From the NCBI GenBank assembly GCA_963699985.1, contig CAVOVZ010000028.1, positions 32,013 to 96,012 of the forward strand: 64,000 nucleotides of DNA. Direction: 5' to 3'. Source of the stretch: Terriglobia bacterium. Its GTDB lineage: Bacteria > Acidobacteriota > Polarisedimenticolia > Polarisedimenticolales > CAVOVZ01. Both the position numbers and the translations under genes were made by a program. The first letter of the stretch is position 1. Each line of letters opens with the position of its first letter. Below the pieces are notes generated by a model. That model was not told the DNA's origin, searched no databases, and saw only the letters and a program-made list of their open reading frames with translations. This document shows positions 5,266 to 46,859 of the stretch, in pieces.

Positions 5266-5325
5266 CGACCTCCTTTTCTGCCGGGAGCCCGATTGCCCCC
5301 GGCATGAGGCCTTGCCGAGTCCCCC
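5266..5325 (-). promoter_or_regulatory. Conserved 5' leader, copy 1 (shared with 8505..8565): hairpin plus Shine-Dalgarno
   Basis: Plus-strand gacctccttttctgccgg..gcccgattgcccccggcatgaggccttgccgagtccccc is near-identical at both loci. Similarity stops abruptly further upstream. The RNA sense reads GGGGGACUCGGCAAGGCCUCAUGCCGGGGGCAAUCGG..CCGGCAGAAAAGGAGGUC-ATG, with a GCCGG(G)/(C)CCGGC stem next to the SD. Confidence 0.5.
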
Positions 5326-5541
5326 GCCCTGCGCCTGGCCTCTCCCGCCGGTGAGGCGCGTCTCGCGGCCCCCAAGGATCGCGATCCGGCCCGAAAGACC
5401 CGATTCGCATCGCGGCTCGCGACCCGCTGCCGCAGCACGAAGGCCCCGGAGCGACTGCCCCTGGCCAGGATCGTCCGTGGTACGCTGGCGCACCGAAAAG
5501 CCATGATTCGCCTGATCGCCACCACCACACCGGGGGAGACG

Positions 5542-5826
5542 ATGACCTACCGACCGCGGCCCATCGACACGACCGGGATCGAGCTCGGCGAGGACCTCGA
5601 CGCGTTGGTTGAAGCCCTCGCCGCGAACGTCCACGAACACTGGTCGGAGCAGCGAATGAGCGAGGGCTGGAGGTACGGGAAAGACCGGGACGACGCCGCG
5701 AAAGCCCATCCCGACCTGGTCCCGTACGATCAGCTGCCGGAATCGGAGAAGGCCTACGACCGCCTCACCGTGGTCCAGACCCTGAAGGCCGTCGTGGCGA
5801 TGGGATACCGCATCGAGAAGGCCTGA
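5542..5826 (+). CDS. Stand-alone RyR (ryanodine-receptor repeat) domain protein, 94 aa
   Basis: MTYRPRPIDTTGIELGEDLDALVEALAANVHEHWSEQRMSEGWRYGKDRDDAAKAHPDLVPYDQLPESEKAYDRLTV matches the RyR-domain pattern (HE-W..R...GW-YG......K-HP-LVPY--LPE-EK-YDR). GGGGGAGA precedes the ATG. Confidence 0.8.
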   Translation: MTYRPRPIDTTGIELGEDLDALVEALAANVHEHWSEQRMSEGWRYGKDRDDAAKAHPDLVPYDQLPESEKAYDRLTVVQTLKAVVAMGYRIEKA

Positions 5827-5911
5827 CGGCGGCGAGCCGCGGCTTCAGCGCGCGCAGGATCGAGCCGATCGTCCGGCGCCTGCGAGACCGATGCGACGGT
5901 GGGAGGATCGC

Positions 5912-7700
5912 ATGGGCGAAAAGCGAGCCGATCACGGATCTGGCAACGGGCGAAACAGGAAGACGCGACGGGGCCCGAGATCGACCGAGAAGCTGAGCAG
6001 GCTCCGCGCGCTGGTCTGCCGGCTGGGGCAGATGTGCACGCGACTGGCCCAGTTCGGTCAGTCGGCGTCACCCGAGATGTCTGCGACGGTCGCCGCGTGC
6101 GCGAAGAGCGCCCTCGCCGTCGCGAACGAGCTGGATCCACCCTCCGGAGCGGTCGCTCCAGCACCGAGGAGGAGGGCCGCGCGCGATCGCGACGAAGGCA
6201 TCACGGCCGCGGCGCATCTCGAGGCCGTCTCGCGACGGATCCTGGAATCCGCGGTCCTCCGCAAGGATCCCGACCTGCATTTCGACTTGGGTCTCGCGTT
6301 CAAGGAGATCGAGGAGTACGAAAAGGCCGAGACGCACCTGCGCATCGCCACCACGCGGCGGCCGTCGAACGAGCGGACTTTCCAGCAGCTCGCGATCTGC
6401 CTCGGACGGCTGGGACGGCTGGAAGACGCGCTGGGCATTCTCTCCGATCTCGATCGGGACCGGCCCGGATCCTCCGAGACGCTGGGGCTGCTCGGCCGCG
6501 TCCACAAGGACCTGTGGCTGCGCGAGAGGAAGCTCCACAGACTAAATCGGCACCACCTGGAGCGGGCGGTCCGCTGCTACGAGGCGGGCTTCCGGAAGAA
6601 CCCGACCGACTTCTATCCGGGCGTCAACGCCGTGACGCTCCGAAGCTTCCTGTCCGGCACGGGAGCGCAGGGGCGATCGGCAGGACTCGCAGCCAAGGTC
6701 CTGGCCGCCTGCGAAATCGACACGACGTTCGGCACCGACGATTTCTGGGCTTGGGCTGCGGCGGGCGAGGTTCACATCGCGTGCGACCGGTTCGACGAGG
6801 CGCTGCTGGCTTACGAGCGTGCGCTCGAGTGCCGCCACACGCCGTTCATGCGAACGTCGGCGCTGCGGCAGCTCGTGCTGATCCGCGACGAGCGAGAGTC
6901 TCGACGCGCAGATCGACCCGATCATCCGGCGCCTCGAGGCGCCCTCGCGGCCGGACGAGATCTCGCCGCGGTTCATTCGCTGGCTGGCCAGCGAGTACTC
7001 GGCGCACCGGCGAAAGGCTCCGAGCGTGGCGGTCAAGGGATACGACCTGGGCCAGAGGGTCCTGCCGGCCCTGGGATTGTCGGCGGACCTGCTGTTCGTG
7101 CGCGCGGACGAGCGGACCCTCCGGGTGGGGCTGGTGGACATCCGGGGCAAGGGGCCAGGCGCCGCGATGCTCGCGCACCTCGCGGAGGGGATTCTCGAAT
7201 CGGCACGCCCGGGCGAGACGCCGAAGGCGACGATGGAGCGGCTGAACAACGCCCTCGAGAGACACTCCTGTCCCAGCGCCGGCGCGCTGCTCGACGTCAC
7301 CCTGGGAACGAGGAGCGTACGCTGCGTGCGCGCGGGGCTGCCGGAGTTGCTGATCTTCGACTCCGCGACGGGAAACCACCGGCACCACGCGGAGGGCGGC
7401 CCACCGCTGGGCTTCCTGCGAGACCCGGAATTCCCGCAGGCCAGCTTCCGCTTGGCACCGTCCGAGACGCTCGTGATCGTTTCGGACGGAATCACGGAAG
7501 CGGCCCCTCCCGGCGATGAAGGGCAGGCGCAGTTCGGCTACGACGGGATCCTGCGCCAGCTCCGCGGAAAGGAAAAGGCAACGCGGTCCGCGCAAAGCCT
7601 CGCCGACGACATCGTCCAGGCCGCTCGGGAGTTCTGCCACGATCGGCGGGACCGGGACGACATGACGGCGTTCGTGTTGAAGGCTCGTCCGCCCGCGTGA
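5912..7700 (+). pseudogene. TPR/DUF4071 domain fused to a PP2C-type (SpoIIE) phosphatase. One frame change near ~6898.
   Basis: ORF 5891..7519 carries TPR-like LGLAFKEIEEYEKAETHL and the DUF4071 hallmark GLLGRVHKDLW..FYPGVNAVTL up to ..LRQLVLIRDERES. Hand translation in the 7026 frame then continues LDAQIDPIIRRLEAP..VAVKGYDLG..VDIRGKGPGAAML..GGPPLGF..LVIVSDGITE..DRDDMTAFVLK, which are SpoIIE/PP2C motifs. GGGAGGA precedes the ATG at 5912; the exact start is uncertain. Confidence 0.75.
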
Positions 7701-7844
7701 TCCGATGCCGCCGGTGCGGCACCCGGATCCGCGAGGCGACCGCTGGGCCGGCCGGTCGCCCGAGAATACCGCCGCCGCAGCCGAGCCGGGTGCCCCGGTG
7801 CTCGGACTGCGGCGGCTTCGTCCCCGCCCCTCGCGGAGACCTAC

Positions 7845-8501
7845 CTATCTACACGTGACGATCCTCGCCGCCACGAGATCGGTGTGGACCTCGTACAGCC
7901 GTCCCGTTCCCGTCCGCAGGATCAGCCGGTATCCGGGGACGATCACCGGGAGGTAGAAGCGTCCGCGCCTCGAACACCCGAGCGAGGTGTCGGACCACTC
8001 GAGGCGCCTCGACTCGATGAGCTGGAGCGAGCCGACCGGCACGTCCAGATGTCGTGCGACGCGCGAGAGGACGGAGAACGATACCGTCTCCGGGAATCCG
8101 GAGCCGTCGAGCTCCGGGCGATCCAGCGGATCGGTCTTCACGCGGAGCCCCTCGCGATCCGTGTGGACCTCGTAGATTCGCTGCCCCGCGCGGAGGAACA
8201 CACGGTGGCCGGGCGTGAGCACCGGCAGGTACATATACATGGGCTCGGGGAATCCGAGCGACGAATCCGACCACGTGACCTCGCAGGAGCACACGACGGA
8301 GACGAAACGCAGCGGCACTCCGAGGCGGGACGCGAGGTGCGCGGCGGCACGCTCCGCCGCGAGCGGCGGGGGCCCGCAGGACGAGCTCGCGGGTGGAATC
8401 GCGAGCGACGGAGTGGATGGGATCGACTGCGCCTGCACCTCGGTGACGCACGACGCGACGGCGAGGACCAGCAGGACTGCGGCAACTCTCCTGGCTCTCA
8501 T
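7845..8501 (-). CDS. Secreted double-repeat protein (paralog B of 4525..5262)
   Basis: Signal peptide MRARRVAAVLLVLAVASCVTEVQA. Repeats are VTWSDSSLGFPEPMYMYLPVLTPGHRVFLRAGQRIYEVHTDREG and LEWSDTSLGCSRRGRFYLPVIVPGYRLILRTGTGRLYEVHTDLVAARIVTC. The long N-terminal extension in ORF 7845..8822 is purine-tract read-through and was not used. Confidence 0.7.
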   Translation of the reverse strand: MRARRVAAVLLVLAVASCVTEVQAQSIPSTPSLAIPPASSSCGPPPLAAERAAAHLASRLGVPLRFVSVVCSCEVTWSDSSLGFPEPMYMYLPVLTPGHRVFLRAGQRIYEVHTDREGLRVKTDPLDRPELDGSGFPETVSFSVLSRVARHLDVPVGSLQLIESRRLEWSDTSLGCSRRGRFYLPVIVPGYRLILRTGTGRLYEVHTDLVAARIVTCR

Positions 8502-8504
8502 GGC

Positions 8505-8565
8505 TGACCTCCTTTTCTGCCGGCGGGGCCGATTGCCCCCGGCATGAGGCCTTGCCGAGTCCCCC
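8505..8565 (-). promoter_or_regulatory. Conserved 5' leader, copy 2
   Basis: Same ~60-nt block as 5266..5325, directly upstream of the paralogous gene, including AAAAGGAGGTC before the ATG. Confidence 0.5.
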
Positions 8566-8689
8566 TTTTGCCGCGGGGAGCGGATGCCGGGTCGCAGGAA
8601 CGGGCCGGTTGCGGACAGCCGAAACTCGCGCAACACACCGCAGTTCGAATGGCCCGTGCGCTGGCGAGTTTGGGTTCGTGTCCCCGACT

Positions 8690-9170
8690 TGCCTCTGCTT
8701 CCTGCTTCCTCCCGCTTCCTGCTTCCTCCCGCGGCTCTCCGCCCCCTTGGCTTCCTTCGCTCGCCCCTTCTCCCCCCTTCGCTTCTCTGCTCTCGCCTCC
8801 TCTTCTCGTCTCTTCTCTTCACTTCTCTCCGATCCGCTGCTCCCCCCTCGCCCGCTCTCCCGTCCCCCCGGCTCTTCTCCGGCCCTCGCCTCTACGTCCC
8901 ATCCGCTCTCCGCTCCCCTCTCCCCCTTGCTCTCCGCCCCCCCCTGCCCGTTTTCGCTCGCTCCTCTTCACCCATCCGCTCCGCTACTCTCGCCGCCTCT
9001 TCTCTTCGCCTGCCTTCTCTGCTCTCCGATCCGCTGATCACCGCTCGCCCGCTCTCCCCGGCGCCTCTCCGCCACAGCGCGGCAGCCCTCGCCGCGCCGC
9101 CCCTCTTCTCCCACGCGCGCGCTGCGACACCTCCTTCCCCGCCGCGCCGGGCCCGGGCATAATCGAGCTC
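8690..9170. repeat. ~480-bp polypyrimidine (C/T) tract on the plus strand, almost devoid of A, in a divergent intergenic region
   Basis: Runs such as cttcctgcttcctcccgcttcctgcttcctccc...ctcttctcgtctcttctcttcacttctctcc. All three plus frames are open, giving Pro/Ser/Leu-rich pseudo-ORFs (8544.., 8552.., 8584..). An internal ~200-bp-spaced repeat ctctccgatccgctg..ctcgcccgctctccc occurs at ~8825 and ~9023. Confidence 0.85.
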
Positions 9171-9200
9171 GCCCGATCATCGGAACCGCCGAGGGACCAG

Positions 9201-12200
9201 GTGCCGACCAGCGAAGACGGCAAGCCGCCCACGCTCTTCGTGAGCTACAACCACCAGGACGCGGCCGAGGTCGAGGCGGTCGTCGCCGAGCTGCGCGCGG
9301 AGGGCATCGAGGTCCTCTTCGACCGATCGTCGTTCGAGCTGGGCCTTCCCTGGCGCGACCAGGCGGAGCGGGCGCTCCGATCGTGCAGCGCCGTTCTGGT
9401 GTTCCTCGGTCGCAGCGGGATCGGGCCGGAGCAGAAGCAAGAACGGGACATGGCCCTGTCCCGTGCGAACAGGGAACTGGGCTTCCGGGTGATCCCAGTT
9501 TTGCTCCAGGGCGCCGATCCGCCGGGCGACTTCCTGAGCGAGCGGGCCGGGGTCGATCTCGCGAAAGCCCCGGACCGCGGGGCAGCGATCCGCGCGATCG
9601 CGGCGGCGGTCCGGCGCGAGCCTCCCTCGGCCGAGCAGACCCGGCTGGCGAAGGAGGCTCGGGAGGCGATTTGCCCCTACCGCGGATTGAAGCACTTCCG
9701 CGAGGAGGACGCCTCGCTCTTCTTCGGCCGCGAAACCTACACCGAAGACCTCGTCCGGAAGGTGCGCGACCACTCGATCGTCGTCGTCGAGGGGGCCTCG
9801 GGACGCGGCAAGTCCTCGATCGTGCGCGCCGGCCTCGTCCCGTTCCTCCGCAACGACCCGTCCGGCACGAGCTGGGACATCGCCATGATGACTCCCAGGG
9901 ATCGCCCGTTCTACTACCTCGCCGAGGCGCTCCTGCCGATCCGCGAGGACATCCGCGACGGCGTCGCCTTCGACGCGAAGGCCGAGGACCTGAGCAATCT
10001 GCTCCGGGAGCGGAAGGAGAAGCTGCGCGACGTGGCCGACCACGCGCTGGCGCGTCGCGGGCCGTCCCGCCGCCGCCTCCTGGTCGTCGTCGATCAGTGG
10101 GAGGAGCTGTACACCCTCTGCGAGCGCGACGCGGAGCGCGACGACTTCATCGAGATGCTCCTCGACGCCACCGCGAACGGGCCGGTCCAGGTCGTTCTCA
10201 CCGTCCGCGCGGACTTCGCCGGCCGCCTCTCCGACCATCGCGCCCTCAACGACCGGACCAACGACGCCAGGCTCAGCCTGGGCCCGATGAACCGCGACGA
10301 GCTGGGGCGGGTGATCGCCGAGCCGGCCCGCGTCGCCGGCCTGACGCTCGAGCAGGGTCTCGCGGAGTGGATCCTCGGCGAGGTCGGAAGCGACGCGGAC
10401 AGCCTGCCGCTCCTCGGCTTCACCCTCGCGGAGCTGTGGCGCCTCCGGAAGGACAGCACGCTCACGCACGCCGCGTACGAGAAGATGGAAGGCGTCAAGG
10501 GGTCCATCACCCACCACGCGGACGCGGTGCTCCAATCCCTCGGAAAGGACGACCGCGAGCGCCTCCGACGCCTTTTCCTGAACCACCTCGTCAGGCCCGG
10601 CGACAGGACGGAGGACACCAGCCGCCGAGCCCCCCTCGCGCAGCTCGACCCGCCGATGCTGTCCCTCGCCCGCAAGCTCGCCGACGAGCGCCTCGTCGTG
10701 ATCTCGCGCGAGAAGGCCGCGGGCAGCGAAACCGTGCAGGTCGTCCACGAGACTTTGATTCGCGGCTGGAAATCCCTGAAGGAGTGGCTGGACGCGGACC
10801 GCGAGTTCGCCTCGTGGCGCGAGCGGCTGCGGCGGGGGATGGCGGACTGGGAGGACCGAGGCCGGCGCGACGTCGCGCTGCTGCGAGACGACGACCTCGC
10901 CGATGCGCGCCGCTGGCTGGCGCGCCGGCGCGAGGACCTGAGCGAAGCCGAGAGAGACTTCGTCGAAGCGAGCGCTCGGCGGGAGCGGCGGGCGCGGACG
11001 CGCCGGTGGGCCGCGGCGGCCGCGATCGGGGTGACGCTCGCGGCGGCCGGGGGATTCGCCGTGGTGACCGAGATGAGGCGGGTGGAGGACCAGGCGAAAA
11101 GGTTGTGCATTGAGGTGACGACGACTTCGAAACCCTGGGCAGTCGTCGCGCTACTTCGTGACGCAAAGCGCGATTTGCCCGTCGTCGAATACCACGGTCT
11201 TGCCCGGTGCGTGCTGGAGAGGAATGAGCCGTGGGACGGATTCGAGTCGCTCCCCGTCTTCGGACCGAAGCCTGTCTATGTTCGTCCCGGCGACGTCTTC
11301 GACGCGGTCGAGCTGATGCTGCCGAGCGCGAAGCCTGCGGACGTCGATGACGTGCAGCTCATCGCGTCCCTGCTGTGGGCGCTCGACTACTCCCGGCCTC
11401 GACGGCTCGCTTGACGAGCCGTATCTGAGGCTGAGATCGAGCGCCGAAGACACGCTCCATGCGGCATTCGGCCCCCCTGGGGCGGGGTTGATCAAGAAAG
11501 ACGCCTGGGTTCGCGTCGGCGGCCGCTCGTTCCGGATGGGGAGCGAGGCCAGAGATCAGGTGGCCGATGGTGACGAGTGGCCGGCGCACGATGTGACCCT
11601 GTCTTGGTTCGAGATCCTCCGGCATGAGGTCTCGGAGGCCGAGTGGCGCGCGTTTCGCGGGTCGGTCCCCGAGCAGCCGAACATCGAATCTCGGCATGAC
11701 GGTGAGCTTCCGGTGATTGGTGTGACCTGGTACCAGGCGTACGCGTTCGCGGCGTGGCTGACGCCCGGCGGCCGCCTCCCGACGGAGGCGGAGTGGGAGC
11801 ACGCGGCGCGCGGCGGACACGACGGCCGGCAGTATCCGTGTGAGGGGGAAACGGTTTGTGGGGGTTCGACCTGTCTCGCGAACGTCCGCGAGGCCGAAAT
11901 CCAGGGTCGGACTCCCGTTTGCTACGGAAGGTTCAAACCGAACGACTTCGGGCTCTGCGACATGGCCGGCAACGTGTGGGAGTGGACGGCAGATTGGTAC
12001 GCGCCATACGCGGACGAAAAACAGACCGACCCGCGTGGCCCCCCCCGGAATAATGATGAGGCAACAACCCACGGCCGGGCGCGCGTGATCCGGGGCGGGA
12101 GCTTCGACTACGAGGGCTGGGTCGCTCGCTGCGCGGACCGCCTCTACGGGTTCGCGTGGGACAGGGACGGGTCCCTCGGCTTCCGCGTCGTGCGCCCCGC

Positions 12201-12216
12201 CGCCCCGAGCGATTGA
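9201..12216 (+). pseudogene. TIR - STAND (nSTAND-like) NTPase - TM helix - FGE-sulfatase (SUMF1/lectin-fold) domain protein. One frame change near ~11400.
   Basis: A GTG at 9201 follows GAGGGA. TIR: PTLFVSYNHQDAAEVEAVVAELRAEGIEVLFD..VLVFLGRSGIGPEQKQE. STAND: ICPYRGLKHFREEDASLFFGRE..VVVEGASGRGKSSIVRAGLVPFL..LLVVVDQWEELY. TM: WAAAAAIGVTLAAAGGFAVV. Frame 0 stops at 11414, and the 11347 frame continues ..WVRVGGRSFRMGS..VTWYQAYAFAAWL..RLPTEAEWEHAARGG..GNVWEWTADWY..VIRGGSF..GFRVVRPAAPSD. It is collinear with the intact paralog 13049..16333. Confidence 0.8.
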
Positions 12217-13048
12217 AGTTGGATGATGGATCATAGAGTGTGTTGGCAGCGTCGGCCGGCTCGGCAGTGCGCGGCAAGGCCCGGCGGAATCCGCCGCACG
12301 GATCCCGCTCGGGAGCTGGCGCCGCGGAATCAGCCTTCGGAGTAGAACGATCTCCGCGCCCAATCTCCCCATCCGCTCGCGGTTCCAGGCTGACCAGCGG
12401 AGGCCGCGCCTCGGCCCGCTGCTGCCGGCGTCGCGGCTGATTGTGCCGCGTGGGAGAGGAGCTGGTTGTCCTTTTCGTGCCGCGCGCGCCAGGGGCTGCG
12501 GCAAGACGTACCCCGGATCGGCCGCGGCGCGCTCAAAAGAATACGACCCCGGCCGAAGACGCCATCGACCGGGCGAAGTCGACCCCGCGCCCGCCCGGCC
12601 GCGCCCACTCGGACTCGATCCTCCGCCGCATCCGTGCGAGCGCGCGAGGGCGCGGACGGATGTCCTCGCGCGTGATCCGACAGCCGAGCGCGTCGAGGTG
12701 CCCGCGGCACGAGAGCAGCCTCGCCCGGGGATGCTTCAGGCGAAGGTGTCGCTCCGATAGGAGCCAGGCGCCGACCGCGCGACTCGCCGCGGCAAGAAAC
12801 CGTCGTCGATCGAACTGTGCGACCGACTCATCCGGCGGACCCCGGCAGGATCTGCCGAGGGATGCCCGCGACAGGCCGGGCGAGGTACGTACCCGGCCGC
12901 CGCGAGAATCTCCGGCGATTCGCGCCTGGAGTCATCCCTTGGACTTGGGGGGAGCGATTCTGGAAACGCCGCTTCGCCGCTATCCGCCGCGGCGTGCCGG
13001 CTTCTGCCGAGCCGGCCGAGGCTCCCTACCCACTCTGTGATCCATGAT

Positions 13049-16000
13049 CTACTTCCAATCGCTCGGGGCGGCGGGGCGCACGACACGGAAGCCGACGAGC
13101 GCGCTCGAGTCCCTCGGGTCGGCGAGGAAGCGGTACGCGCAGCGTGCGTACCAGCCATCGCTGAAGAAGCTCCCGCCCCTGATCACACGCCCCGCGCCGC
13201 GGGTCGGGCCCAGAGGGTCCTCCCGCCGCTTCGCTGAATACGGCTCGCGCCAATCGGCGACCCACTCCGTCGCATTACCCGCCATGTCACACAGACCGTA
13301 ACCGTTCAAGACGAATCTGCCGTCACAAACGGGCGATCGATCCCCGATTCTCGCTTCCTGAGGGATATCCCACTTCCACGCCCGCTTCGTGACGACGCGC
13401 CCCGAGGATGGATCCCCGATTCTCGCTTCCTTCACGTTCGCCCGGCACGATCCGCCGGCGCAAACGTCCTCGGGCCCCCACGGATACCGCTGCCCCTCCA
13501 GTCCCCCGCGCGCCGCATACTCCCACTCGGCTTCCGTGGGAAGACGACCTCCTGGCACGAGCCACGCCGCAAACGCATAGGCCCGGTACCACGTCGTACC
13601 GACGACCGGCAGGTCGTCGCTCTTCTCGTCGGGGACATCCGCAGGTTCGGGGGCCTCTCCGGTGAACGCGCTCCACTCCGCCTCCGTGACCTCGTGTCGG
13701 AGGATCTCGAAACCAGAAACGGTCACATCGATCGCCGGCCGCTCGTCGATATCGCCTTCCCGATCGTCGGACTCGGTTCCCATTCGAAACCGCCCCCCAG
13801 GAATCGGCACCCAATCCGAGCTCGAAAGGAGACCCGAGGGAGGATCCGGGGGTTCCCGCGACGCGCGCAGAGACAGTTCGACGCGCCTGCGTAGCTCGCG
13901 GCATCGGCCTGCGACCGCCGGGTCGCGCCGCTCGCGCTTGCTCACTCCCGCGACGTAGTCCACGATCCACGCCATCGCACCGAAAGTCTCGTCGCGCTTC
14001 TTCCGGCCCGCCAGAGCCTTCGCGAGCGGCAGGAGGTCTTCGACGAGATCCAGCTCCTTTCCCGGGTCGAAGCCCTTCGGGAGCATTTCAAGCCCGTAGG
14101 GATAATCCGCCCGCGCCACCGCATTTTGGAACGCCCCAACGAGAGCCCAGGAGTGGTCGCGGGAAACCTGCATGAGGAGCGAGTGGATCTCACCGCTGGG
14201 AGCTTTGCTCAGCCTACCCGCCAGGTTGACTCCGTCGAAGTACACCTTCGCCCCGAGCCCCACGACCGCCGCCAGCACCAGCGCCCCGGCGCCCGCGATC
14301 GCCGCGCGGCGGGTCCAGCGTTTCCAGCACGCCCGGAACCAATCCCGCTGCGCCGGGGCGCTGAGGAGCGCGTCCTTCGCCCGGCGGATCCGCACTAGCT
14401 GGCGCACCGACATGCGGGTGGCCTGGGTCCGGGCCTCCGGCGCTTTCGATGCGAAAAGCGCGGTGTTGAGATCGACGATCCGCCGCAGGGCGAGGGTCTT
14501 GTTGCGCGCGCTCTCCTTCTCGACCACGCGCGCCACGGCCTCGGCGACGAGATCGTGGGTCAGCTCGTAGAGACCGTCCTGGACGACCACGATCCGGGCC
14601 CGGTCGTCGGCGAGACGCTCCAGGACCGTCGCGCCCTGGGAGCCGATCGCCGCGGCCAGCTCCGTCCCCGGGATCCCCGGGCCGCGTCGGTTCTCGGGGC
14701 CGACGAGACGGTGGAGCGCGAGGAGCGTGCGCTCACGCACCTTCGCGGGCTGATCGACCTCGACCTCGCGCACGACGCGCTCGAGCGTGTCGGTCACGTG
14801 GCGATCGAGCGCGTCGGCGATCAGCGATCGCGGTTGCTCGGGAACCGACACGCTGCGGGTGCCGTCCGGAAGTCGCTCGGCCTTCTTCTCCAGGAGATAC
14901 CGGAGCACCACCTGGAGCTGCGGGACCAGCGGCCGCTCGCGGTCGGCGAGGCGCTCCTCGGCGAACGCCGCGGCGAGACGGCTCGCGCCCGTGTCGATGA
15001 ACTTCAGTGGATAGACGGCGGTACCGTCCTCCTTCCTTCGCAGGCGGAGCGGCTTCTCGATCGCGTCCCGGAACGCGGCCTCGACCTCCGCCCTCTCCCT
15101 CGGCTCGTCCGCCAGGCCCGGCGTCGGCGAGGCGAAGACCGGCAGCCGCCACGAGTGAAAGCGGTCCTGCATACCGTCGTGGGGCAGCCCCTCGATGCCG
15201 GGCACGCCCGACTCGTGCGCCGCCGACAGCAGGTCGCGGAGCCAGCCGTCCACCTTGCCGGTGTCCTCCTCGCGGAAACCCAGCAGCCAGCGGCAGGGGG
15301 GCTCCGCGGGCCACGACTGGAGCTGGAGCGTCGCGGCGACGAGCGCGCCTACCTCTCCGCGCTCGCGGACGCGGGCCCGATCGAGCAGGAGGCTCTCGAA
15401 CTGGTCGAGGATCAGGATCGGCGGCTTGCCGCCGTGCAGCTTGCGCGCGACGACGAGCGCCGCGACGAAGCCGCGCGCATCGAACGCGCTCGACGGAGCC
15501 GGCGGCGGCTGGATGAGCTGCCGCAGGAGGCGGTGCGCCAGATCCGGCTCGCCCGGCTTGCGGTCGTAGGCCGCCGGGTGGTTCGCGTCCCACAGCGCCG
15601 GCAGCAGGCCCGCGCACAGCACGGAGCTTTTCCCCGCGCCCGACGGCGCCTTGAGCCCGAGGATCGGGAACGGAAGGGTCAGGAGCCGGAGCAGCTCCGT
15701 CACATCGCCGTCGCGGCCGGCGAAGAGATCGCGGTGCTCGTAGTGCCGCAGGAGCGGGTACGGCTCGGCGGGCAGCCTGGGCGGCTCGGGCGTGTGACGC
15801 GTCACGCCCTCCGAAAGGACGGCGGCGGACTTTCCCGGCTGCGGCTTCCCCTCCCGGTAGTTGTTGAGGAGGGTTCGGAGCGTCTCGCGAAAGATCGGAA
15901 GCTCCGGACCGTCCTCCCACCGGAACGGCGTTGCGATGCGGTTCAAGGTGTTCCGGAGGTCTTTCATGTAGGCCAGCTCGCCCGGATCCAGATCCGCGAG

Positions 16001-16333
16001 TCCCGGCCAGAGGTCCTCTGCCATCAGGACCAGCACGTCGAGCGGCCTGGGCCTTCGCGCCCCGGCGCGCTTGATCTCGAGGCTCGTGATCGACTCGCGG
16101 CCGTCGCCGTCTTCCGCGGCCGTCGGAACCCAGCCGCGCCGCCACGCGACGATCGCCAGCATCAGGTCGCACGAGTCGATCTTCTCGTAGCACGGGCGGA
16201 CGATGCCCGGCTTTCCGTCCTGCTGGAAGTCCTCCATGTTCACGGGAGTCCAGCCGATGCCGTGCACCACGTCTCGCGCGACGATCCGGTGCTGCTTCAG
16301 GTCCTTGGACGTGGAGGAGATGAAGACGCGCAT
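13049..16333 (-). CDS. DUF4062 (TIR-like) - STAND NTPase - TM helix - FGE-sulfatase domain protein (intact)
   Basis: MRVFISSTSKDLKQHRIVARDVV..CDLMLAIVAWRRGWVP (DUF4062). LFAGRDGDVTELL..LGLKAPSGAGKSSVLCAGLLPAL..ILILDQFESLL (Walker A/B). TM AAIAGAGALVLAAVVGLGAKVYF. C-terminus WVPIPGGRFRMGTE..TTWYRAYAFAAWL..RLPTEAEWEYAARGG..GNATEWVADW..VIRGGSF..GFRVVRPAAPSDWK. Confidence 0.85.
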   Translation of the reverse strand: MRVFISSTSKDLKQHRIVARDVVHGIGWTPVNMEDFQQDGKPGIVRPCYEKIDSCDLMLAIVAWRRGWVPTAAEDGDGRESITSLEIKRAGARRPRPLDVLVLMAEDLWPGLADLDPGELAYMKDLRNTLNRIATPFRWEDGPELPIFRETLRTLLNNYREGKPQPGKSAAVLSEGVTRHTPEPPRLPAEPYPLLRHYEHRDLFAGRDGDVTELLRLLTLPFPILGLKAPSGAGKSSVLCAGLLPALWDANHPAAYDRKPGEPDLAHRLLRQLIQPPPAPSSAFDARGFVAALVVARKLHGGKPPILILDQFESLLLDRARVRERGEVGALVAATLQLQSWPAEPPCRWLLGFREEDTGKVDGWLRDLLSAAHESGVPGIEGLPHDGMQDRFHSWRLPVFASPTPGLADEPRERAEVEAAFRDAIEKPLRLRRKEDGTAVYPLKFIDTGASRLAAAFAEERLADRERPLVPQLQVVLRYLLEKKAERLPDGTRSVSVPEQPRSLIADALDRHVTDTLERVVREVEVDQPAKVRERTLLALHRLVGPENRRGPGIPGTELAAAIGSQGATVLERLADDRARIVVVQDGLYELTHDLVAEAVARVVEKESARNKTLALRRIVDLNTALFASKAPEARTQATRMSVRQLVRIRRAKDALLSAPAQRDWFRACWKRWTRRAAIAGAGALVLAAVVGLGAKVYFDGVNLAGRLSKAPSGEIHSLLMQVSRDHSWALVGAFQNAVARADYPYGLEMLPKGFDPGKELDLVEDLLPLAKALAGRKKRDETFGAMAWIVDYVAGVSKRERRDPAVAGRCRELRRRVELSLRASREPPDPPSGLLSSSDWVPIPGGRFRMGTESDDREGDIDERPAIDVTVSGFEILRHEVTEAEWSAFTGEAPEPADVPDEKSDDLPVVGTTWYRAYAFAAWLVPGGRLPTEAEWEYAARGGLEGQRYPWGPEDVCAGGSCRANVKEARIGDPSSGRVVTKRAWKWDIPQEARIGDRSPVCDGRFVLNGYGLCDMAGNATEWVADWREPYSAKRREDPLGPTRGAGRVIRGGSFFSDGWYARCAYRFLADPRDSSALVGFRVVRPAAPSDWK

Positions 16334-16441
16334 CGTGGTCTCGCGGCGATCGACGATCCGGCTCAGCCTAACACAGAGCCGCGGCGCTTCGGATCCCGGC
16401 CCGCGGTGGTCGCGCGTCCGCACTGCGACCCCGCAGCGCGG

Positions 16442-18650
16442 CTATTCCACGGACGTGTCGTCGGACCGGGCGCCCGGGGCCGGCGTCTGGACGATCTCCC
16501 AGTCGAGCGCATCGAGGAGCGACCCGAGCTGCCTCGCCGCCGATCGGTCGTACTCCCGCGCGTCGTCGCGAACCTCCGACCAGGGGACCAGAAGCGGGTG
16601 GGTCTTCCCGTCGGCGTCCTTCTTCTCGCCGTACGTCCAGCCCTGCTCGAGACGCTCGACGACCCAGCGGCCGTGCTCCATCTGCGCCAGCTCTTCGAGC
16701 TGCTCCGCCGTTGCTTCGAACCGCTCGCCGCGCTTGGCTCCCACCGGAAGCCGCAGCTCGTAGCCCAGCCGCCGGAGCTTGCGCGCCAGGTCGCGGGCCT
16801 GGAGGCTGCTCGATTTGCGGTAGTCGGGGTGAAGCTGCTCCCAGGGCGCGTCGGAATCGTCCGGGGTACGGCCTTGCTCGTGACGGGTGCGCCGGTACTC
16901 CTCGTGGATCGCGCGGCCGAGCCGCTCCTCGAGCGAATCGGAGAGCCAATCGGAAGGCAGCTCCCTCCCGGCGAAGGCGCGAGGGATCTCGACGTCCGAG
17001 AGCGGCAGGATCATCGGTCGGCGCGCGGCGCTGTGCTTCTCGTCCTCGTCGTGACTGCGGCCCGGGTGCCTGGGCCGAAGCAAGGACGCCACGCGCGCCG
17101 CAGGGTCCACGCACGCGACCACGCCGCCCAGCACGGCGCACGCGGTCGCCTCGATCGGGGTTCGGATCGAGCGTCCCAGGACCAGCACCGCGGGAGCGCG
17201 ACCGCGACGGTCGGCGGCGACGAGGTCCTTCCACGCGCGGACGAGCGCGGGCATGCCGCGGTAGCGGTCCGGAAACGTGGGATCTCCCAACGCCCGCGCG
17301 TGCTCGTCGGGGTCGTACGAGCGGAAGCCGAACCCGGAGCCCGCGGCGCGGGACGCGTCGCGCAGGAGCGCGCGCAGGGCATCGTCCGATCCGACGTGGA
17401 GCACCGTGCCTCCGAAGTCCCGCAGCACGGCCCGGAGCCGCTCGCTCTCCCGCTCGATCCACGCCGCCGCGCGCCCTCCGTCCAGAACGAGCAGGAACGG
17501 AGGCTCGATCGAGCGCTCGGCGGCCGCCGCCGAGCCGACCTCGAGTCGTGATGCGAGCGCGAGAAACTCCCTCGCCAGGACGAAACGCGCATCCGCGGCG
17601 AACACCCGCTCGGTCAGGACCCGGAAGCTCTCGTGGGTCGTGCTCACCTTGCGCACGCCCGGGCCGGAGTGAGCCACGGCACGGACGAGGGCGTGGAGGT
17701 ATCTCGTTCGATCGCCCCCGAGGAGAAGGAACTTCGCCAGGTCGAAGGAGGACCAGGGCACGTTGATGCTCTTGGCTGCGTCGCGACGCGTCTCTCGGAT
17801 CGCGAGATCGATCTGCAGCCGGTACTCGTCGATCGCCTGCTGCGCCGCGCCCTTTCGGACCGCGATCTCGATCACGTTCCCCAACGGGTAGGCGAAGTAG
17901 TAACGCGGGTCTTGCCCGGCCAGATCGAGCGCCTTTCGGTACCACGCCTCCGCCTGCTCGATGTCCCCTGCTCGCTTCCACGTGCCCGCGAGCGTCGAGA
18001 GGGTATCCGGCGTCGCCTGTGGAGACTCCGCCGCCCGCTCCAGCAGCGACTGTCCCCTCTCGAACTCGCTGGTGCCCGGCGCGTTGCGCTGTGTCAGCGC
18101 GAGGCCGAGGAGCTCCGAGCGCCCGGAAGTCGCGAAGGTAGTCGCTGCGATCGAGGAGCCGGATCACCTCGCTCCAGTCGTCCTTCTGCTCCTTCGCCAG
18201 GCGGGCCTGGTGGAGGGCGAGGACGAGGGACGCCTCGAACCCACTCGTGGCGGGGGGAGGCGCGATCGGTCGACGGCCTCGGGCCAGCTCCCGATACGCT
18301 TCGTCCTTGACGATCCAGAAGAACATCCGGGGCTGCGATCCTACCGTTCGCAATCGATCCCGGAGCCGTTCTCGCGTCGCGTGCACGATCTCGGTGTGAC
18401 CCGTGGAGAAGGCCACCTCCGCGCCGCGTCCTGGACGAACGTAGCGAAGCTGCTCCCCCTTGGGCGGTTCCTTGAAGCTCTCGGCCGGAAGGAGGCCGCG
18501 GAGTCGATCCTCGTCGTTACGGGACAGGACGTACACCGCCGGAAGCCGCGACGACTCGTCGTTCCGTAAGCGCGCCAGATCGCTCTCGGGGAGCTCGCAC
18601 GCCTCCCAATCGGTCGAGTCGGTGGTGAAACGGAATGCCGGGATCGCCAT
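16442..18650 (-). pseudogene. Multidomain protein: unknown N-terminal domain, TPR-like repeats, central alpha/beta region (unassigned) and C-terminal RyR domain. One frame change near ~18125.
   Basis: Start MAIPAFRFTTDSTDWEACE is preceded by GAGGAT. The 16368..18764 frame reads to ..IRLLDRSDYLRDFR. Hand translation of the 16442..17884 frame upstream of its start gives ELLGLALTQRNAPGTSEFERGQSLLE..AGDIEQAEAWYRKALDLAGQDPRYYFAYPLGNVIEIAV. The C-terminus LEELAQMEHGRWVVERLEQGWTYGEKKDADGKTHPLLVPWSEVRDDAREYDR is a RyR domain. The stop lies 108 nt upstream of the start of 13049..16333 on the same strand. Confidence 0.7.
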
Positions 18651-19805: not shown

Positions 19806-20171
19806 ATGGCAGTCGTCTACCGAGCGAGCGCAGCGATTCGCATCCTCCTCCTCACGGTCCTCCTCGCCTCGCTCGCGCTGCCGCCCGCGCTTGCCATGTC
19901 GACTTCTCCCCCTCCCGGCACGCGGTCGAATCCAGGTGGATCCGAGGCTCGACACTCTTCGCGCCAGCTCGGGTGGCTCCGCAACGGCGGCATCAGCTTC
20001 CGCGTCGTGGTGCTCCCCGCCCCGAGTAGGACTCCGGTCCAGGAGCCTGTTCCTCGCCGCGCAGCCGTCCGCGCCTCCGGATCTTCGATCTCCCCACTCG
20101 GCGTTTCGCGGGGTAGACTCTCCATCAGAGGGACGCTGGGGTTCCGGGCTTGGTCGGGGCGCTCGAAGTGA
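19806..20171 (+). CDS. Small putative secreted protein (121 aa), no domain recognised
   Basis: MAVVYRASAAIRILLLTVLLASLALPPALA is signal-peptide-like. Support is only ORF plus signal peptide. Confidence 0.4.
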   Translation: MAVVYRASAAIRILLLTVLLASLALPPALAMSTSPPPGTRSNPGGSEARHSSRQLGWLRNGGISFRVVVLPAPSRTPVQEPVPRRAAVRASGSSISPLGVSRGRLSIRGTLGFRAWSGRSK

Positions 20172-21141: not shown

Positions 21142-21612
21142 CCCCGTCGCGCCTCCCACGCCCCCGACTCTGATTTCCTGTCCCTCGATCTGACTTTTCG
21201 GCACACGAATGCGTCTCGGCTGCGCACCGGAATGCCTTAAGTTGCCTTGCATCCACGTGGCCGGGATTCCGACCGCCGAGGGTCTTGACGGGGCGGGGGC
21301 TCCGTTTCGTCTCCGACGGAAAGAGGGCGTAGCGATGTTCCGGCTTCGCGGGCTTCATGGCTCGGGGGCGGACCGCGGCCGGGCGGTGCGATCCCCCGAG
21401 CTGGCTGCGATGTGTCCTTGAACGCCAGAGCCGCGCAGCGGACTCTCGAGGTGTCCTTCGCGGGACGACCGGCTACGAGTCCCCTCCCATCCGGGTCCCA
21501 TCGCCCGGAGTCCCTGCGAGAACGCCGATGTGTGCGGACCGCCTGCCGGCAGTTTGCGGATGATCCCGGGAAAGGAGGACGGACCATGGTCGGAACACGA
21601 CGCACCCCTCTT

Positions 21613-21985
21613 GAGAAACAGATGCTCGGGGGCTTTGCCCCAGAACCCCCACTCCCGCCCTCCGCGACGCCGGCGGACCGGCATCGCTCCGGTTGGGCTT
21701 GTTTCTTCCCGAGGTGTCGGGCTGCACGCCCGTACCGCGCTCCTAAGAAACAGCGCCGCGGGGGCTTTGCCCCCGAACCCCCACTCCCGCCCTCCGCGAC
21801 GCCGGCGGACCGGCATCGCTCCGGTTGGGTGTGTTTCCTCCCGAGGTGTCGGGCTGCACGCCCGTACAGCGCTCCTAAGAAACAGCGCCACGGGGGCTTT
21901 GCCCCCGAACCCCCACTCCCGCCCTCCGCGACGCCGGCGGACCGGCATCGCTCCGGTTGGGTGTGTTTCTTCCCGAGGTGTCGGG
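21613..21985 (+). repeat. Repeat family A: three tandem ~122-123-bp structured units
   Basis: The unit is aaacag..gggggctttgcccc.gaacccccactcccgccctccgcgacgccggcggaccggcatcgctccggttggg..tgtttc.tcccgaggtgtcggg(ctgcacgcccgtac.gcgctcctaag). It occurs three times with few mismatches. Internal hairpins are ggggc-ttt-gcccc, gcgacgccgg-cgga-ccggcatcgc and cccga-ggtg-tcggg. The same unit occurs inverted at 62505..62760. Confidence 0.9.
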
Positions 21986-22014
21986 AGAACGTCCGTGAGG
22001 CTGCTAACGAGACG

Positions 22015-37940: not shown

Positions 37941-38037
37941 GAAGAGGCACTCCTTCCGGCGGTGACCCGACGCGCGAGATCTTGCCCCTCATGGCCCGAC
38001 CTGCGCGGATGGACGCCGGCGTCGGCCGCAGAGGAAG

Positions 38038-46257: not shown

Positions 46258-46354
46258 GAAGAGGCACTCCTTCCGGCTGTGACCCGACGCGCGAGATCTT
46301 GCCCCTCATGGCCCGAGCTGCGCGGGTGGACGCCGGAGTCGGCCGCAGAGGAAG

Positions 46355-46370: not shown

Positions 46371-46859
46371 GTCAAAGACCCGCCGCGTTGATCCCGCCGG
46401 CGTGCCTCTCGAGCGGACGCATCCCTCCGCCATCTCACACGGGGACAGCAACTTGGTCGTGCCGAGGGGGACTGCGCGCGGCCTCATTTCGATGCCTGTC
46501 GCGCTCCCTCCATCGCGGGGCAGTTTGCCCCCCCGGGTCGGTTTGCCCCTCAACGGTCTCGATGCGACGACGGCACCCGGCCGAGCCGCGCTGGCCCCCT
46601 CACCGGATGATCGAGCGTCGACCCATCGGAGACGGCTCCTTCTCGCGACGCGAACGCCACCGGGACCGTCGCTCTCGCGGATGCCTGCCGCCGCCATGTC
46701 ACGAGGCGAAGCGCCCCTTCGGGGCAGGCTGCCCCGAGAAGAGGTTGACATCCGGGTCACGCAAGGTGGAGACTGGCGTCACGGCAGACAGCGGCGCGAG
46801 GGGGCCCGAGCATCGGCGAATCACGGCCAGCTTCGACAGGCGCGGAGACGGGAGATCGC

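What the first reader, a model, noticed from the sequence alone, without database searches (positions are those of the whole stretch)
9201..16333. Convergent pair of transmembrane TIR/DUF4062-STAND receptors with extracytoplasmic FGE-sulfatase (lectin-fold) heads
Both proteins share one order of parts: death/TIR-like effector, P-loop STAND NTPase, a single TM helix, a ~170-aa linker, and an FGE-sulfatase domain. The predicted topology puts the lectin-fold domain outside the cell and the NTPase plus TIR inside, so this would be a one-component surface-to-suicide signalling receptor. The N-terminal effector differs between the two (classical TIR versus DUF4062). The genes are tail-to-tail, and their last ~35 coding nt plus ~30 nt beyond the stop are an inverted repeat. 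STAND-FGS fusions have been discussed in comparative-genomic work on conflict systems. I know of no experimental description of the transmembrane architecture or of paired convergent copies.
Basis: partly seen in the sequence, partly recalled or inferred. Interest (0 to 1): 0.72.

Follow-up and report, generated by a model that had tools for sequence, protein, structure and literature searches.

The report
Decayed DGR locus with two receptors
The two convergent genes are the paired target genes of a diversity-generating retroelement (a reverse-transcriptase system that hypermutates a lectin-like binding domain), a computationally known but untested kind of bacterial immune receptor, and in this genome the mutator has been deleted and one receptor is frameshifted.

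Summary
The domain reading is mostly right. Gene B (13049-16333, -) is DUF4062 / nSTAND1 / one TM helix / helical linker / FGE-type lectin domain. Gene A has TIR_2 / nSTAND1 / TM, then an FGE domain.

- Gene A is not one ORF. A 2-nt deletion near 11400 shifts the frame, with a stop at 11414, and the FGE domain lies in another frame.
- The inverted repeat at the 3' ends is 222 nt long. It is the variable region (VR) plus a conserved 3' core and post-stop element of a diversity-generating retroelement (DGR).
- A close relative (L001) carries HTH / Avd / template repeat (TR) / reverse transcriptase (RT) between the same two genes. Its VRs differ from the TR at 17/29 and 12/29 adenines but at 0/114 and 1/114 other bases.

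In the window about 2.7 kb of that cassette is deleted, leaving only the last ~80 RT codons (12533-12779). The FGE catalytic cysteines are absent and their position falls inside the VR.

The architecture, its DGR link and two-target loci are already described computationally (Kaur 2021; Dore 2024). This is a decayed new member of a known kind. The conserved TM helix, implying a periplasm-facing hypervariable domain, and the strongly mosaic allelic divergence are the modestly new points.

The parts
9201..11414 (+). Gene A, 5' reading frame: TIR_2 (9237-9590), nSTAND1 (9675-10868), TM helix (11010-11066), start of the helical linker. A premature stop at 11412-11414 follows the frameshift at ~11399-11400.
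   Evidence: Pfam; hydropathy; 2-nt deletion relative to the L001 orthologue; tblastn break at residues 727/728.
11401..12216 (+). Gene A, 3' part in the +1 frame: end of the linker and the FGE-sulfatase / C-type-lectin-fold domain (about 11500-12195).
   Evidence: Pfam FGE-sulfatase 1.4e-47. dN/dS 0.35 against the L001 orthologue, so this is not an old pseudogene.
12068..12210 (+). VR of gene A. The last 36 nt (12175-12210) are the A-free GC-rich core shared with the TR (IMH-like).
   Evidence: Aligned to the L001 TR, 18/29 TR adenines changed against 8/114 other bases. Core motif matched with 0 mismatches.
12211..12288 (+). Conserved post-VR element of gene A (stop codon, GATCATGGATCATAGAG-like segment, GC-rich short palindrome). 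It is absent from the TR.
   Evidence: Inverted repeat I1; alignment of ten VR flanks from five loci. Hairpin prediction was not significant.
12533..12779 (-). Remnant of the DGR reverse-transcriptase gene: the last ~80 codons plus the stop. It lacks the fingers/palm region and the YVDD motif.
   Evidence: tblastn 85% to residues 235-334 of the L001 RT; junction analysis. The L001 RT matches Bordetella phage bRT (PDB 8ub7) at 1.7e-27, with TSQ and YVDD motifs lying upstream of the remnant.
12774..12779 (.). Deletion junction. About 2.7 kb present in L001 (its positions 8062-10730: HTH_17, Avd, TR and the RT N-terminal two thirds) is missing here. There is ~5-nt microhomology (CCGCG).
   Evidence: blastn colinearity; junction alignment.
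12983..13060 (-). Conserved post-VR element of gene B, the other arm of the inverted repeat beyond the stop.
13061..13203 (-). VR of gene B. The IMH-like core is at 13061-13096.
   Evidence: 18/29 TR adenines changed against 9/114 other bases, compared with the L001 TR. Core motif matched with 1 mismatch.
13049..16333 (-). Gene B, intact, 1094 aa: DUF4062 TIR-like domain (16064-16330), nSTAND1 (Pfam core 15251-15763; STAND module to about residue 660), TM helix (14249-14305), six-helix linker (13820-14248), FGE/CLec domain (13076-13819).
   Evidence: Pfam; hydropathy; AlphaFold2 mean pLDDT 84; Foldseek matches FGE and TvpA 2y3c. Catalytic Cys pair absent. DUF4062 Glu86 conserved in 28/33.

Best explanation
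The region is a decayed DGR locus. Genes A and B are its two target (variable-protein) genes.

In the intact form, seen in a close relative, a cassette of HTH, Avd, template repeat (TR) and reverse transcriptase (RT) sits between the convergent genes. TR RNA is reverse-transcribed with errors at adenines. The cDNA then replaces the last ~110-140 nt (VR) of each gene.

The VR encodes the ligand-binding face of an FGE-type C-type-lectin fold, at the place where FGE enzymes carry their catalytic cysteines.

Each target protein is a single-pass membrane protein. Inside the cell it has a TIR or TIR-like (DUF4062) NADase effector and an nSTAND1 NTPase. Outside the cytoplasm it has a helical linker and the hypervariable lectin domain.

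Inferred mechanism: ligand binding in the periplasm or at the surface drives STAND oligomerisation, which activates the NADase and depletes NAD+ (abortive or containment response).

In this window the system is largely dead:
- Avd, TR and two thirds of the RT are deleted.
- Gene A is frameshifted between the TM/linker and the lectin domain.
- Two neighbouring island genes are also frameshifted or truncated.
- Gene B alone is intact, with a now-frozen VR.

Shown: domains, frameshift, deletion, and the adenine-specific TR/VR pattern in the relative. Inferred: topology, signalling across the membrane, NADase output, and the nature of the ligand.
For: - L001 is colinear with window 5780-18230 (flanks 99.5% identical) and carries HTH_17, bAvd and RVT_1 between orthologues of B and A.
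- In L001 the TR differs from VR_B at 17/29 A and 0/114 non-A positions, and from VR_A at 12/29 A and 1/114 non-A. In frame, the TR is rich in AAC codons.
- The L001 RT best matches the Bordetella phage DGR RT (8ub7, 1.7e-27), with the TSQ and YVDD motifs.
- The window VRs show the same pattern against that TR: 18/29 A versus 8-9/114 non-A.
- The window keeps only RT residues ~250-334, and the deletion junction shows microhomology.
- Gene A has a 2-nt deletion.
- FGE Cys336/Cys341 equivalents are absent and their position lies inside the VR. The fold matches FGE and the DGR protein TvpA.
- The TM segment has a K/R-rich N-side flank and is conserved in about 40/50 homologues.
- A second locus (L012) has the same cassette (RT 66% identical) between convergent TIR-Pkinase-FGE and TIR-NACHT-FGE genes.
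- DUF4062 has been shown to be a TIR-like NADase with a catalytic Glu (bioRxiv 10.64898/2026.05.01.722283). Glu86 of gene B is conserved in 28/33.
- The architecture and its DGR link are in the literature.
Against: - The window itself has no TR, Avd or active RT, so the DGR assignment rests on a relative and on the VR pattern.
- The window VRs also differ from the relative's TR at 7-8% of non-A sites. This is divergence of the lost TR or drift, and the two cannot be told apart.
- Pfam scores of the L001 RT (28.7 against a cut-off of 29.6) and Avd (35.4 against 40) are just below gathering thresholds.
- Topology rests on hydropathy and the positive-inside rule only.
- No hairpin downstream of the VR is statistically supported.
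- The frameshifts could be assembly errors, and a second DGR elsewhere in the unseen genome could still act in trans.
- No member of this family has been tested experimentally.
Confidence: 0.8

Rival explanations
1. The locus is still functional. The three frameshifts are assembly errors, or are tolerated, and a DGR elsewhere in the genome diversifies both VRs in trans through the conserved 3' core.
For: - The IMH-like core and post-VR element are intact in both VRs.
- Convergent pairs with VR-like inverted 3' ends but no RT between them exist elsewhere: L004, L010, and partly L006.
- Kaur et al. note that the RT may be located elsewhere in the genome.
- The part of gene A downstream of the frameshift has dN/dS 0.35.
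Against: - No other RT or TR occurs in the 64 kb.
- The cis RT is demonstrably truncated.
- All three indels fall within this ~12-kb island, while ORFs of 10.6, 5.8 and 5.7 kb elsewhere in the window are intact. None of the indels is in a long homopolymer.
Confidence: 0.2
2. One reading: two germline-encoded one-component transmembrane receptors with no hypermutation. The terminal inverted repeat would be a by-product of duplication, or a shared bidirectional terminator.
For: The domain order and TM helix are confirmed. No TR is present in the window.
Against: - The repeat aligns to a TR in the relative with adenine-only differences.
- An RT remnant lies between the genes.
- No terminator-like site lies between the genes.
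- The STAND modules of A and B are only ~28% identical, so the near-identical 3' cores are not simply left over from a recent whole-gene duplication.
Confidence: 0.05
3. The hydrophobic segment is not membrane-spanning, and the lectin domain senses invaders in the cytoplasm, as assumed for FGS domains by Kaur et al. 2021.
For: - The literature calls these domains 'intracellular invader-sensing'.
- About 10 of the 50 closest homologues lack the segment.
- AlphaFold confidence is low at residues 683-694.
Against: - The segment is a 19-residue Ala/Gly/Val/Leu stretch with Kyte-Doolittle 2.0-2.5. It is preceded by 5-12 Arg/Lys in 15 residues and followed by 1-5.
- It sits at a conserved position ~250 residues before the LPTEAEW motif in most homologues.
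Confidence: 0.15
4. The C-terminal domain is an active formylglycine-generating (or EgtB/PvdO-like) enzyme.
For: FGE enzymes are the best sequence and fold matches. Sources name relatives 'SUMF1/EgtB/PvdO family nonheme iron enzyme'.
Against: - Both catalytic cysteines are replaced: GGSFFSDGWYA aligns to GGSYMCHRSYCYRY.
- That stretch is hypervariable in the family and is templated by AAC codons in the TR.
- No sulfatase gene is seen among the genes examined around the pair.
Confidence: 0.02

Closest known systems
DGR-diversified STAND NTPase-FGS/CLec conflict systems (Kaur, Iyer, Burroughs, Aravind 2021, PMC8195603; Dore et al. 2024 PNAS, PMC10907252: Thiohalocapsa DGR 6 and RT clade 5D)
   Same: - N-terminal effector or adaptor, then nSTAND1, then a C-terminal FGE-type lectin domain carrying the VR.
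- RT plus a four-helix accessory protein next to the targets.
- Commonly two targets per locus.
- TIR among the effectors.
- Degraded DGR components have been observed.
   Different: - Here the effectors are TIR_2 and DUF4062, rather than EAD8.
- A TM helix separates STAND from the lectin domain. The DGR 6 targets were predicted to be cytoplasmic.
- The cis cassette is deleted and one target is frameshifted.
Bordetella phage BPP-1 DGR (Mtd, Avd, TR, bRT)
   Same: Adenine-specific TR-to-VR mutagenesis. VR at the C-terminal end of a C-type-lectin fold. GC-rich 3' core shared by TR and VR. The relative's RT matches bRT (8ub7) at 1.7e-27.
   Different: The target is a cellular multidomain signalling protein, not a phage tail fibre. 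There are two convergent targets. An HTH_17 gene lies in the cassette.
Treponema denticola TvpA (PDB 2y3c)
   Same: FGE-subtype lectin fold used as a DGR variable protein. It was found by both sequence (1.9e-16) and fold search (TM 0.63).
   Different: TvpA is a lipoprotein with no NTPase or effector.
Antiviral STAND NTPases (Avs, bNACHT) and NLRs
   Same: Tripartite effector / NTPase switch / sensor logic, with TIR-type NADase outputs.
   Different: No PADLOC model matches gene B, and only the TIR domain of gene A matches. The sensor is a hypermutated lectin domain across a membrane, not a cytoplasmic TPR- or LRR-type sensor.
DUF4062 TIR-like NADases (Swarozyc; Evangelion; human TEP1)
   Same: Gene B starts with DUF4062 and keeps the conserved Glu. 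DUF4062 next to a STAND NTPase also occurs in TEP1, NWD1 and NPHP3.
   Different: Swarozyc senses phage portal protein through its own auxiliary domain. Here the sensor is a DGR-type lectin domain.
Formylglycine-generating enzyme (SUMF1)
   Same: Fold, with ~30% identity over ~200 residues.
   Different: The catalytic Cys pair is absent and the active-site region has been turned into the hypervariable surface.

Membership tests
Diversity-generating retroelement (target genes / VR) | DGR-clade reverse transcriptase at the locus | tested here: not met
   The window holds only the C-terminal ~80 codons (12533-12779), without the catalytic motifs. The relative L001 has a full RT that matches bRT 8ub7 at 1.7e-27.
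Diversity-generating retroelement (target genes / VR) | TR/VR pair whose differences fall at TR adenines | tested here: inconclusive
   There is no TR in the window. Against the relative's TR, window VRs differ at 18/29 A and 8-9/114 non-A positions. Within L001 the pattern is clean: 17/29 and 12/29 A against 0-1/114 non-A.
Diversity-generating retroelement (target genes / VR) | Avd accessory gene | tested here: not met
   Absent from the window, because it lies in the deleted segment. Present in L001 (bAvd 35.4 bits, cut-off 40).
Diversity-generating retroelement (target genes / VR) | VR at the C-terminal end of a C-type-lectin/FGE fold, followed by a conserved 3' core (IMH) | tested here: met
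   Function of the core in homing was not tested.
nSTAND1-FGS conflict system (Kaur et al. 2021) | Effector or EAD, then nSTAND1 NTPase, then a C-terminal FGS domain in one polypeptide | tested here: met
   Met by gene B. Gene A has all the parts, but a frameshift splits them.
Formylglycine-generating enzyme | Catalytic Cys pair (human Cys336/Cys341) | tested here: not met
   Alignment to 1y1e and 5ssy shows Ser and Ala at those positions.
TIR / TIR-like NADase effector | TIR-fold domain with the catalytic Glu | tested here: inconclusive
   Gene B: DUF4062 at 1.2e-15, with Glu86 conserved in 28/33. Mapping onto the published catalytic Glu is inferred. Gene A: TIR_2 at 4e-19, but the Glu lies one residue off in a weak alignment to PdTIR 3h16. 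Activity was not tested.
Known anti-phage STAND systems (Avs, bNACHT and others in PADLOC) | Match to a curated defence-system model | tested here: not met
   No PADLOC hit for gene B. Gene A matches weakly through its TIR domain only.
Single-pass membrane receptor | One TM helix with N-in/C-out orientation | tested here: inconclusive
   Hydropathy and the positive-inside rule agree, and the segment is conserved. No dedicated topology predictor or experiment was available.

The most novel reading that the evidence does not exclude
A clade of DGR-diversified nSTAND1 receptors is membrane-anchored, with its hypervariable lectin domain facing the periplasm. That would make it a bacterial transmembrane 'antigen receptor' coupling extracytoplasmic recognition to a cytoplasmic STAND-NADase death switch. 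Its alleles, especially the ectodomain, would be exchanged by recombination between otherwise near-identical strains (dS 0.006-0.06 in the flanks against 0.35-0.9 in the receptor genes). That adds a second layer of diversification on top of the DGR.
Probability: 0.35. Interest if true: 0.7.

Novelty: new member of a known kind. Interest (0 to 1): 0.4.

Why it matters
DGR-diversified STAND receptors are proposed bacterial analogues of hypermutating antigen receptors, and none has been tested experimentally.

- This locus and its intact relative give a clean matched pair, live versus dead: cassette present or deleted, target intact or frameshifted.
- They show that most of this subfamily carries a TM helix that should put the variable domain outside the cytoplasm. 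That bears on what such receptors can sense.
- They show allele-level mosaicism typical of immune loci.
- For annotation, the practical lesson is that convergent FGE-domain genes with inverted-repeat 3' ends should be read as DGR target pairs, even when the RT is gone.

Tried and rejected
- Bidirectional terminator between the genes: no terminator-like site found.
- Known RNA family in the spacer: only a sub-threshold chance hit.
- Stable hairpin downstream of each VR: z-scores from -0.4 to -3.2, inconsistent between copies.
- Finding the window's own genome: it is not in genome contigs (best hit 36-38% identity). Exact-sequence look-ups of two window proteins found nothing. A 180-aa fragment whose matched 51 residues are identical to gene B exists in the representative library (P0059) but could not be traced.
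- Pseudogene drift as the cause of the divergent gene A ectodomain: rejected, because dN/dS is 0.35 and dS is 0.9 while the flanks have dS 0.006. Allelic replacement fits better.
- Concerted evolution of the two FGE domains within a genome: not supported. The A_win/B_win scaffold identity (58.5%) is no higher than the cross-genome values.
- L002 pair as a shared-TR pair: its 3' ends are not alike.
- PADLOC models: no informative hit.
Full report
**What is in the sequence**

The window is about 69% G+C. In this stretch a codon-position G+C filter picks out three stop-to-stop frames: 8508-11414 (+), 11317-12216 (+) and 13049-16441 (-).

Pfam results:
- 9201-11414: TIR_2 (4e-19) and nSTAND1 (1.7e-115).
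- 11347-12216: FGE-sulfatase (1.4e-47).
- 13049-16333 (-): DUF4062 (1.2e-15), nSTAND1 (1.7e-19) and FGE-sulfatase (1.7e-47).

Each protein has a single strongly hydrophobic 19-residue segment between the STAND module and the FGE domain. In gene A it is AAAAAIGVTLAAAGGFAVV (Kyte-Doolittle 2.0). In gene B it is AAIAGAGALVLAAVVGLGA (2.17). In both, the N-side flank is rich in Arg/Lys.

Gene A is not one reading frame. The TIR-STAND-TM frame stops at 11412-11414, and the FGE domain is read in the +1 frame.

**The key context comes from a relative**

A 75%-identical homologue of gene B (P0001) lies on an ENA metagenome contig, L001. L001 is colinear with window 5780-18230.

In L001 the two convergent genes are both intact: DUF4062-nSTAND1-FGE, and TIR_2-nSTAND1-FGE of 998 aa. 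They are separated by 3.5 kb encoding an HTH_17 protein, a bAvd-like protein and a reverse transcriptase.

That RT best matches the DGR RT of Bordetella phage BPP-1 (PDB 8ub7, 1.7e-27). It shows the DGR-typical TSQ motif and YVDD.

A 143-nt stretch between Avd and RT (L001 ~9437-9579) aligns to the 3' ends of both genes. Counting the differences:
- The TR differs from VR_B at 17 of 29 adenines and at 0 of 114 other bases.
- The TR differs from VR_A at 12 of 29 adenines and at 1 of 114 other bases.
- In the gene's frame the TR reads RGARRVIRGGSFDNEGRNARCANRNNRNPRNRNRNVGFRVVRPAAPS. This is the AAC-rich template typical of DGRs.

This is the textbook signature of a diversity-generating retroelement with two targets.

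In the window the repeat is 222 nt at 77% (12067-12288 / 12983-13204). It has three parts:
- The VR: 12068-12210 (+) and 13061-13203 (-).
- Its A-free 36-nt GC-rich 3' core, GTCGGCTTCCGCGTCGTGCGCCCCGCCGCCCCGAGC. This core is shared with the TR. A 33-nt part of it occurs exactly twice in the window, against 0 expected by chance.
- About 70 nt beyond each stop that the TR lacks but all VR flanks share.

An alignment of ten VR flanks from five loci shows the same layout in each. A specific hairpin could not be supported statistically. No terminator-like site or known RNA family lies between the genes.

**The locus in this window is decayed**

- The window lacks L001 positions 8062-10730. That segment holds the HTH gene, Avd, the TR and the N-terminal two thirds of the RT.
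- The junction is at about 12774-12779, with ~5 nt of microhomology.
- What remains is the last ~80 RT codons (12533-12779, -). These lie downstream of the catalytic motif.
- No other RT and no TR occur in the 64 kb.
- Gene A carries a 2-nt deletion relative to L001 at ~11399-11400, outside any homopolymer.
- Two further island genes are damaged. The TPR-SpoIIE gene has a 1-nt insertion at ~6897.
- The AAA-TPR-S-RyR gene has a 1-nt insertion at ~18118, and it loses colinearity (its N-terminal ~450 codons) beyond ~18230.

Reading frames of 10.6, 5.8 and 5.7 kb elsewhere in the window are uninterrupted. The indels are therefore concentrated in this island, which argues for real decay rather than a generally error-prone assembly. 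Only reads can settle this.

Against the relative's TR, the window VRs changed at 18/29 adenines and at 8-9/114 other positions. The extra non-A differences are not shared between the two VRs. They are of the order of the general divergence of these genes, so they do not date the loss.

**The proteins**

- Gene B was modelled with 33 homologues and gave mean pLDDT 84. It has a helix at 660-690 that contains most of the TM segment (677-695), a six-helix linker (694-824) and an FGE-fold domain (841-1090).
- Foldseek matches FGE enzymes (TM 0.6-0.72) and the DGR variable protein TvpA (2y3c, TM 0.63).
- In the alignment to human FGE, the catalytic Cys336 and Cys341 are replaced: GGSFFSDGWYA aligns to GGSYMCHRSYCYRY. 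That stretch is exactly the VR.
- Across the family it is hypervariable between invariant scaffold residues. The domain is therefore a binding module, not an FGE enzyme.
- DUF4062 was recently shown to be a TIR-like NADase with a catalytic Glu (bioRxiv 10.64898/2026.05.01.722283). It also defines an anti-phage family (10.64898/2026.06.25.731849). Gene B keeps the family's conserved Glu86 (28/33).
- For gene A's TIR the catalytic Glu could not be placed with confidence.
- The TM segment lies ~250 residues before the LPTEAEW motif and follows 5-12 Arg/Lys in 15 residues. It is present in about 40 of the 50 closest homologues and absent from about 10.

N-in/C-out topology is therefore the best reading, but it is a prediction. 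In a diderm host the lectin domain would be periplasmic rather than on the cell surface.

**How general this is**

- The architecture recurs with swapped heads: DUF4062, TIR_2, Pkinase, Mrr_cat, SIR2_2 and caspase.
- Convergent pairs recur in L002, L004, L006, L007, L010 and L012.
- The same HTH-Avd-RT cassette (RT 66% identical) sits between convergent TIR-Pkinase-FGE and TIR-NACHT-FGE genes in a Thermoanaerobaculia MAG, L012.
- Several pairs without an RT still have VR-like inverted 3' ends: L004, L010, and partly L006. L002 does not.
- A search with the TM-linker region alone found only 58 representative clusters among 1.84 billion. This particular linker is therefore rare or fast-evolving.

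**Mosaic divergence**

Between the window and L001 the flanks are 95-99.5% identical (dS 0.006-0.06). The receptor genes are far more diverged:
- Gene A cytoplasmic part: 92-95% identity, dS 0.15.
- Gene A from just before the TM to the end: 63-75% identity, dS 0.58-0.90.
- Gene B: 64-88% identity, dS 0.35-0.54.
- dN/dS is 0.27-0.43 in all these segments.

This is allelic replacement by recombination of old, selectively maintained alleles. It is neither pseudogene drift nor local positive selection. It also implies that the gene A frameshift is recent.

**Comparison with what is known**

- Kaur et al. 2021 (PMC8195603) defined nSTAND1 and described effector/EAD-STAND-FGS proteins. The effectors include TIR, DRHyd, caspase and kinase.
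- The same paper notes that these proteins are often linked to a DGR RT and a four-helix accessory protein, in cis or elsewhere, and occur in two or more copies per genome.
- Dore et al. 2024 (PMC10907252) showed DGR loci (RT clade 5D) that commonly have two STAND-CLec targets, some with TIR.
- That paper also discussed TM and periplasmic localisation for some targets and saw degraded DGR components. It states that STAND-associated CLec domains are experimentally uncharacterised.

The finding is therefore a new, decayed member of a known, computationally defined kind.

The modestly new points are:
- the conserved TM helix, whereas Kaur et al. call the FGS sensors intracellular;
- the DUF4062 head, now interpretable as an NADase;
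- the live/dead locus pair;
- the mosaic allelic divergence.

**Verdict**

- Observation: partly confirmed.
- Interpretation: partly supported.
- Best explanation: a DGR target pair whose cis mutator has been deleted, confidence about 0.8.
- The signalling mechanism (extracytoplasmic ligand, then STAND oligomerisation, then NAD+ depletion) is inferred.
- Interest: 0.4.

Noticed in passing
window 8690-9140: A ~450-nt almost pure polypyrimidine (C/T) tract lies on the + strand, in the divergent intergenic region upstream of gene A. It contains several short tandem repeats (periods 5-24). It is length-polymorphic against L001, with many gaps at 8601-9038.
   Followed up: partly
window 13335-13431 (gene B, FGE domain): A 72-nt in-frame insertion relative to the L001 orthologue is bounded by a 25-nt direct repeat (13335-13359 / 13407-13431, 96%). 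It adds PSSGRVVTKRAWKWDIPQEARIGD. The AlphaFold model is disordered there (residues 956-996).
   Followed up: partly
window ~6897 and ~18118-18230: Two neighbouring island genes are also damaged relative to L001. The MAP3K_TRAF_bd/TPR-S/SpoIIE phosphatase gene has a 1-nt insertion. The AAA(sigma54-type)/TPR-S/RyR gene has a 1-nt insertion and lacks its N-terminal ~450 codons.
   Followed up: partly
window 19927-20027: Short fragments resemble the region just downstream of L001 gene B (40 nt, 85%, inverted) and an FGE/VR 3' end (43 nt, 81%; reads GISFRVVVLPAPS). This may be debris of a third target or of the TR.
   Followed up: partly
window 7800-18230 versus L001: Divergence is sharply mosaic. 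Flanks are 95-99.5% identical, the gene A cytoplasmic part 92-95%, the gene A ectodomain 63-75% and gene B 64-88%. dS ranges from 0.006 to 0.9, while dN/dS is about 0.3-0.4 in the receptor-gene segments.
   Followed up: yes
window 5308-5826 (+) and 16442-18163 (-): RyR-domain proteins flank the island on both sides, as in L001. TPR-S and MAP3K_TRAF_bd domains suggest a larger conflict or signalling island around the DGR pair.
   Followed up: no
window 32142-37988 (-) and 40588-46305 (-): Two ~1900-aa proteins share the same domain set: FG-GAP repeats plus MopE-like metal-binding motifs. With the sigma54 activator (46749-48827) and Ser/Thr kinase (49081-50277), the context looks like a Myxococcota-type or similar large chromosome.
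   Followed up: no
window 21289-31893 (+): A 3534-codon open frame with gene-like codon-position G+C has no Pfam match at 1e-5.
   Followed up: no
L012 2361-10688: A Thermoanaerobaculia MAG has the same HTH-Avd-RT cassette between convergent TIR-Pkinase-FGE and TIR-NACHT-FGE genes. One DGR lineage therefore serves receptors with different switch modules.
   Followed up: partly
L004 1090-7973 and L010 6573-12320: Convergent TIR-nSTAND1-FGE pairs have no RT between them, yet their 3' ends are 68-87% alike, including ~70 nt past the stop. These may be further cases of cassette loss or of trans-acting DGRs.
   Followed up: partly
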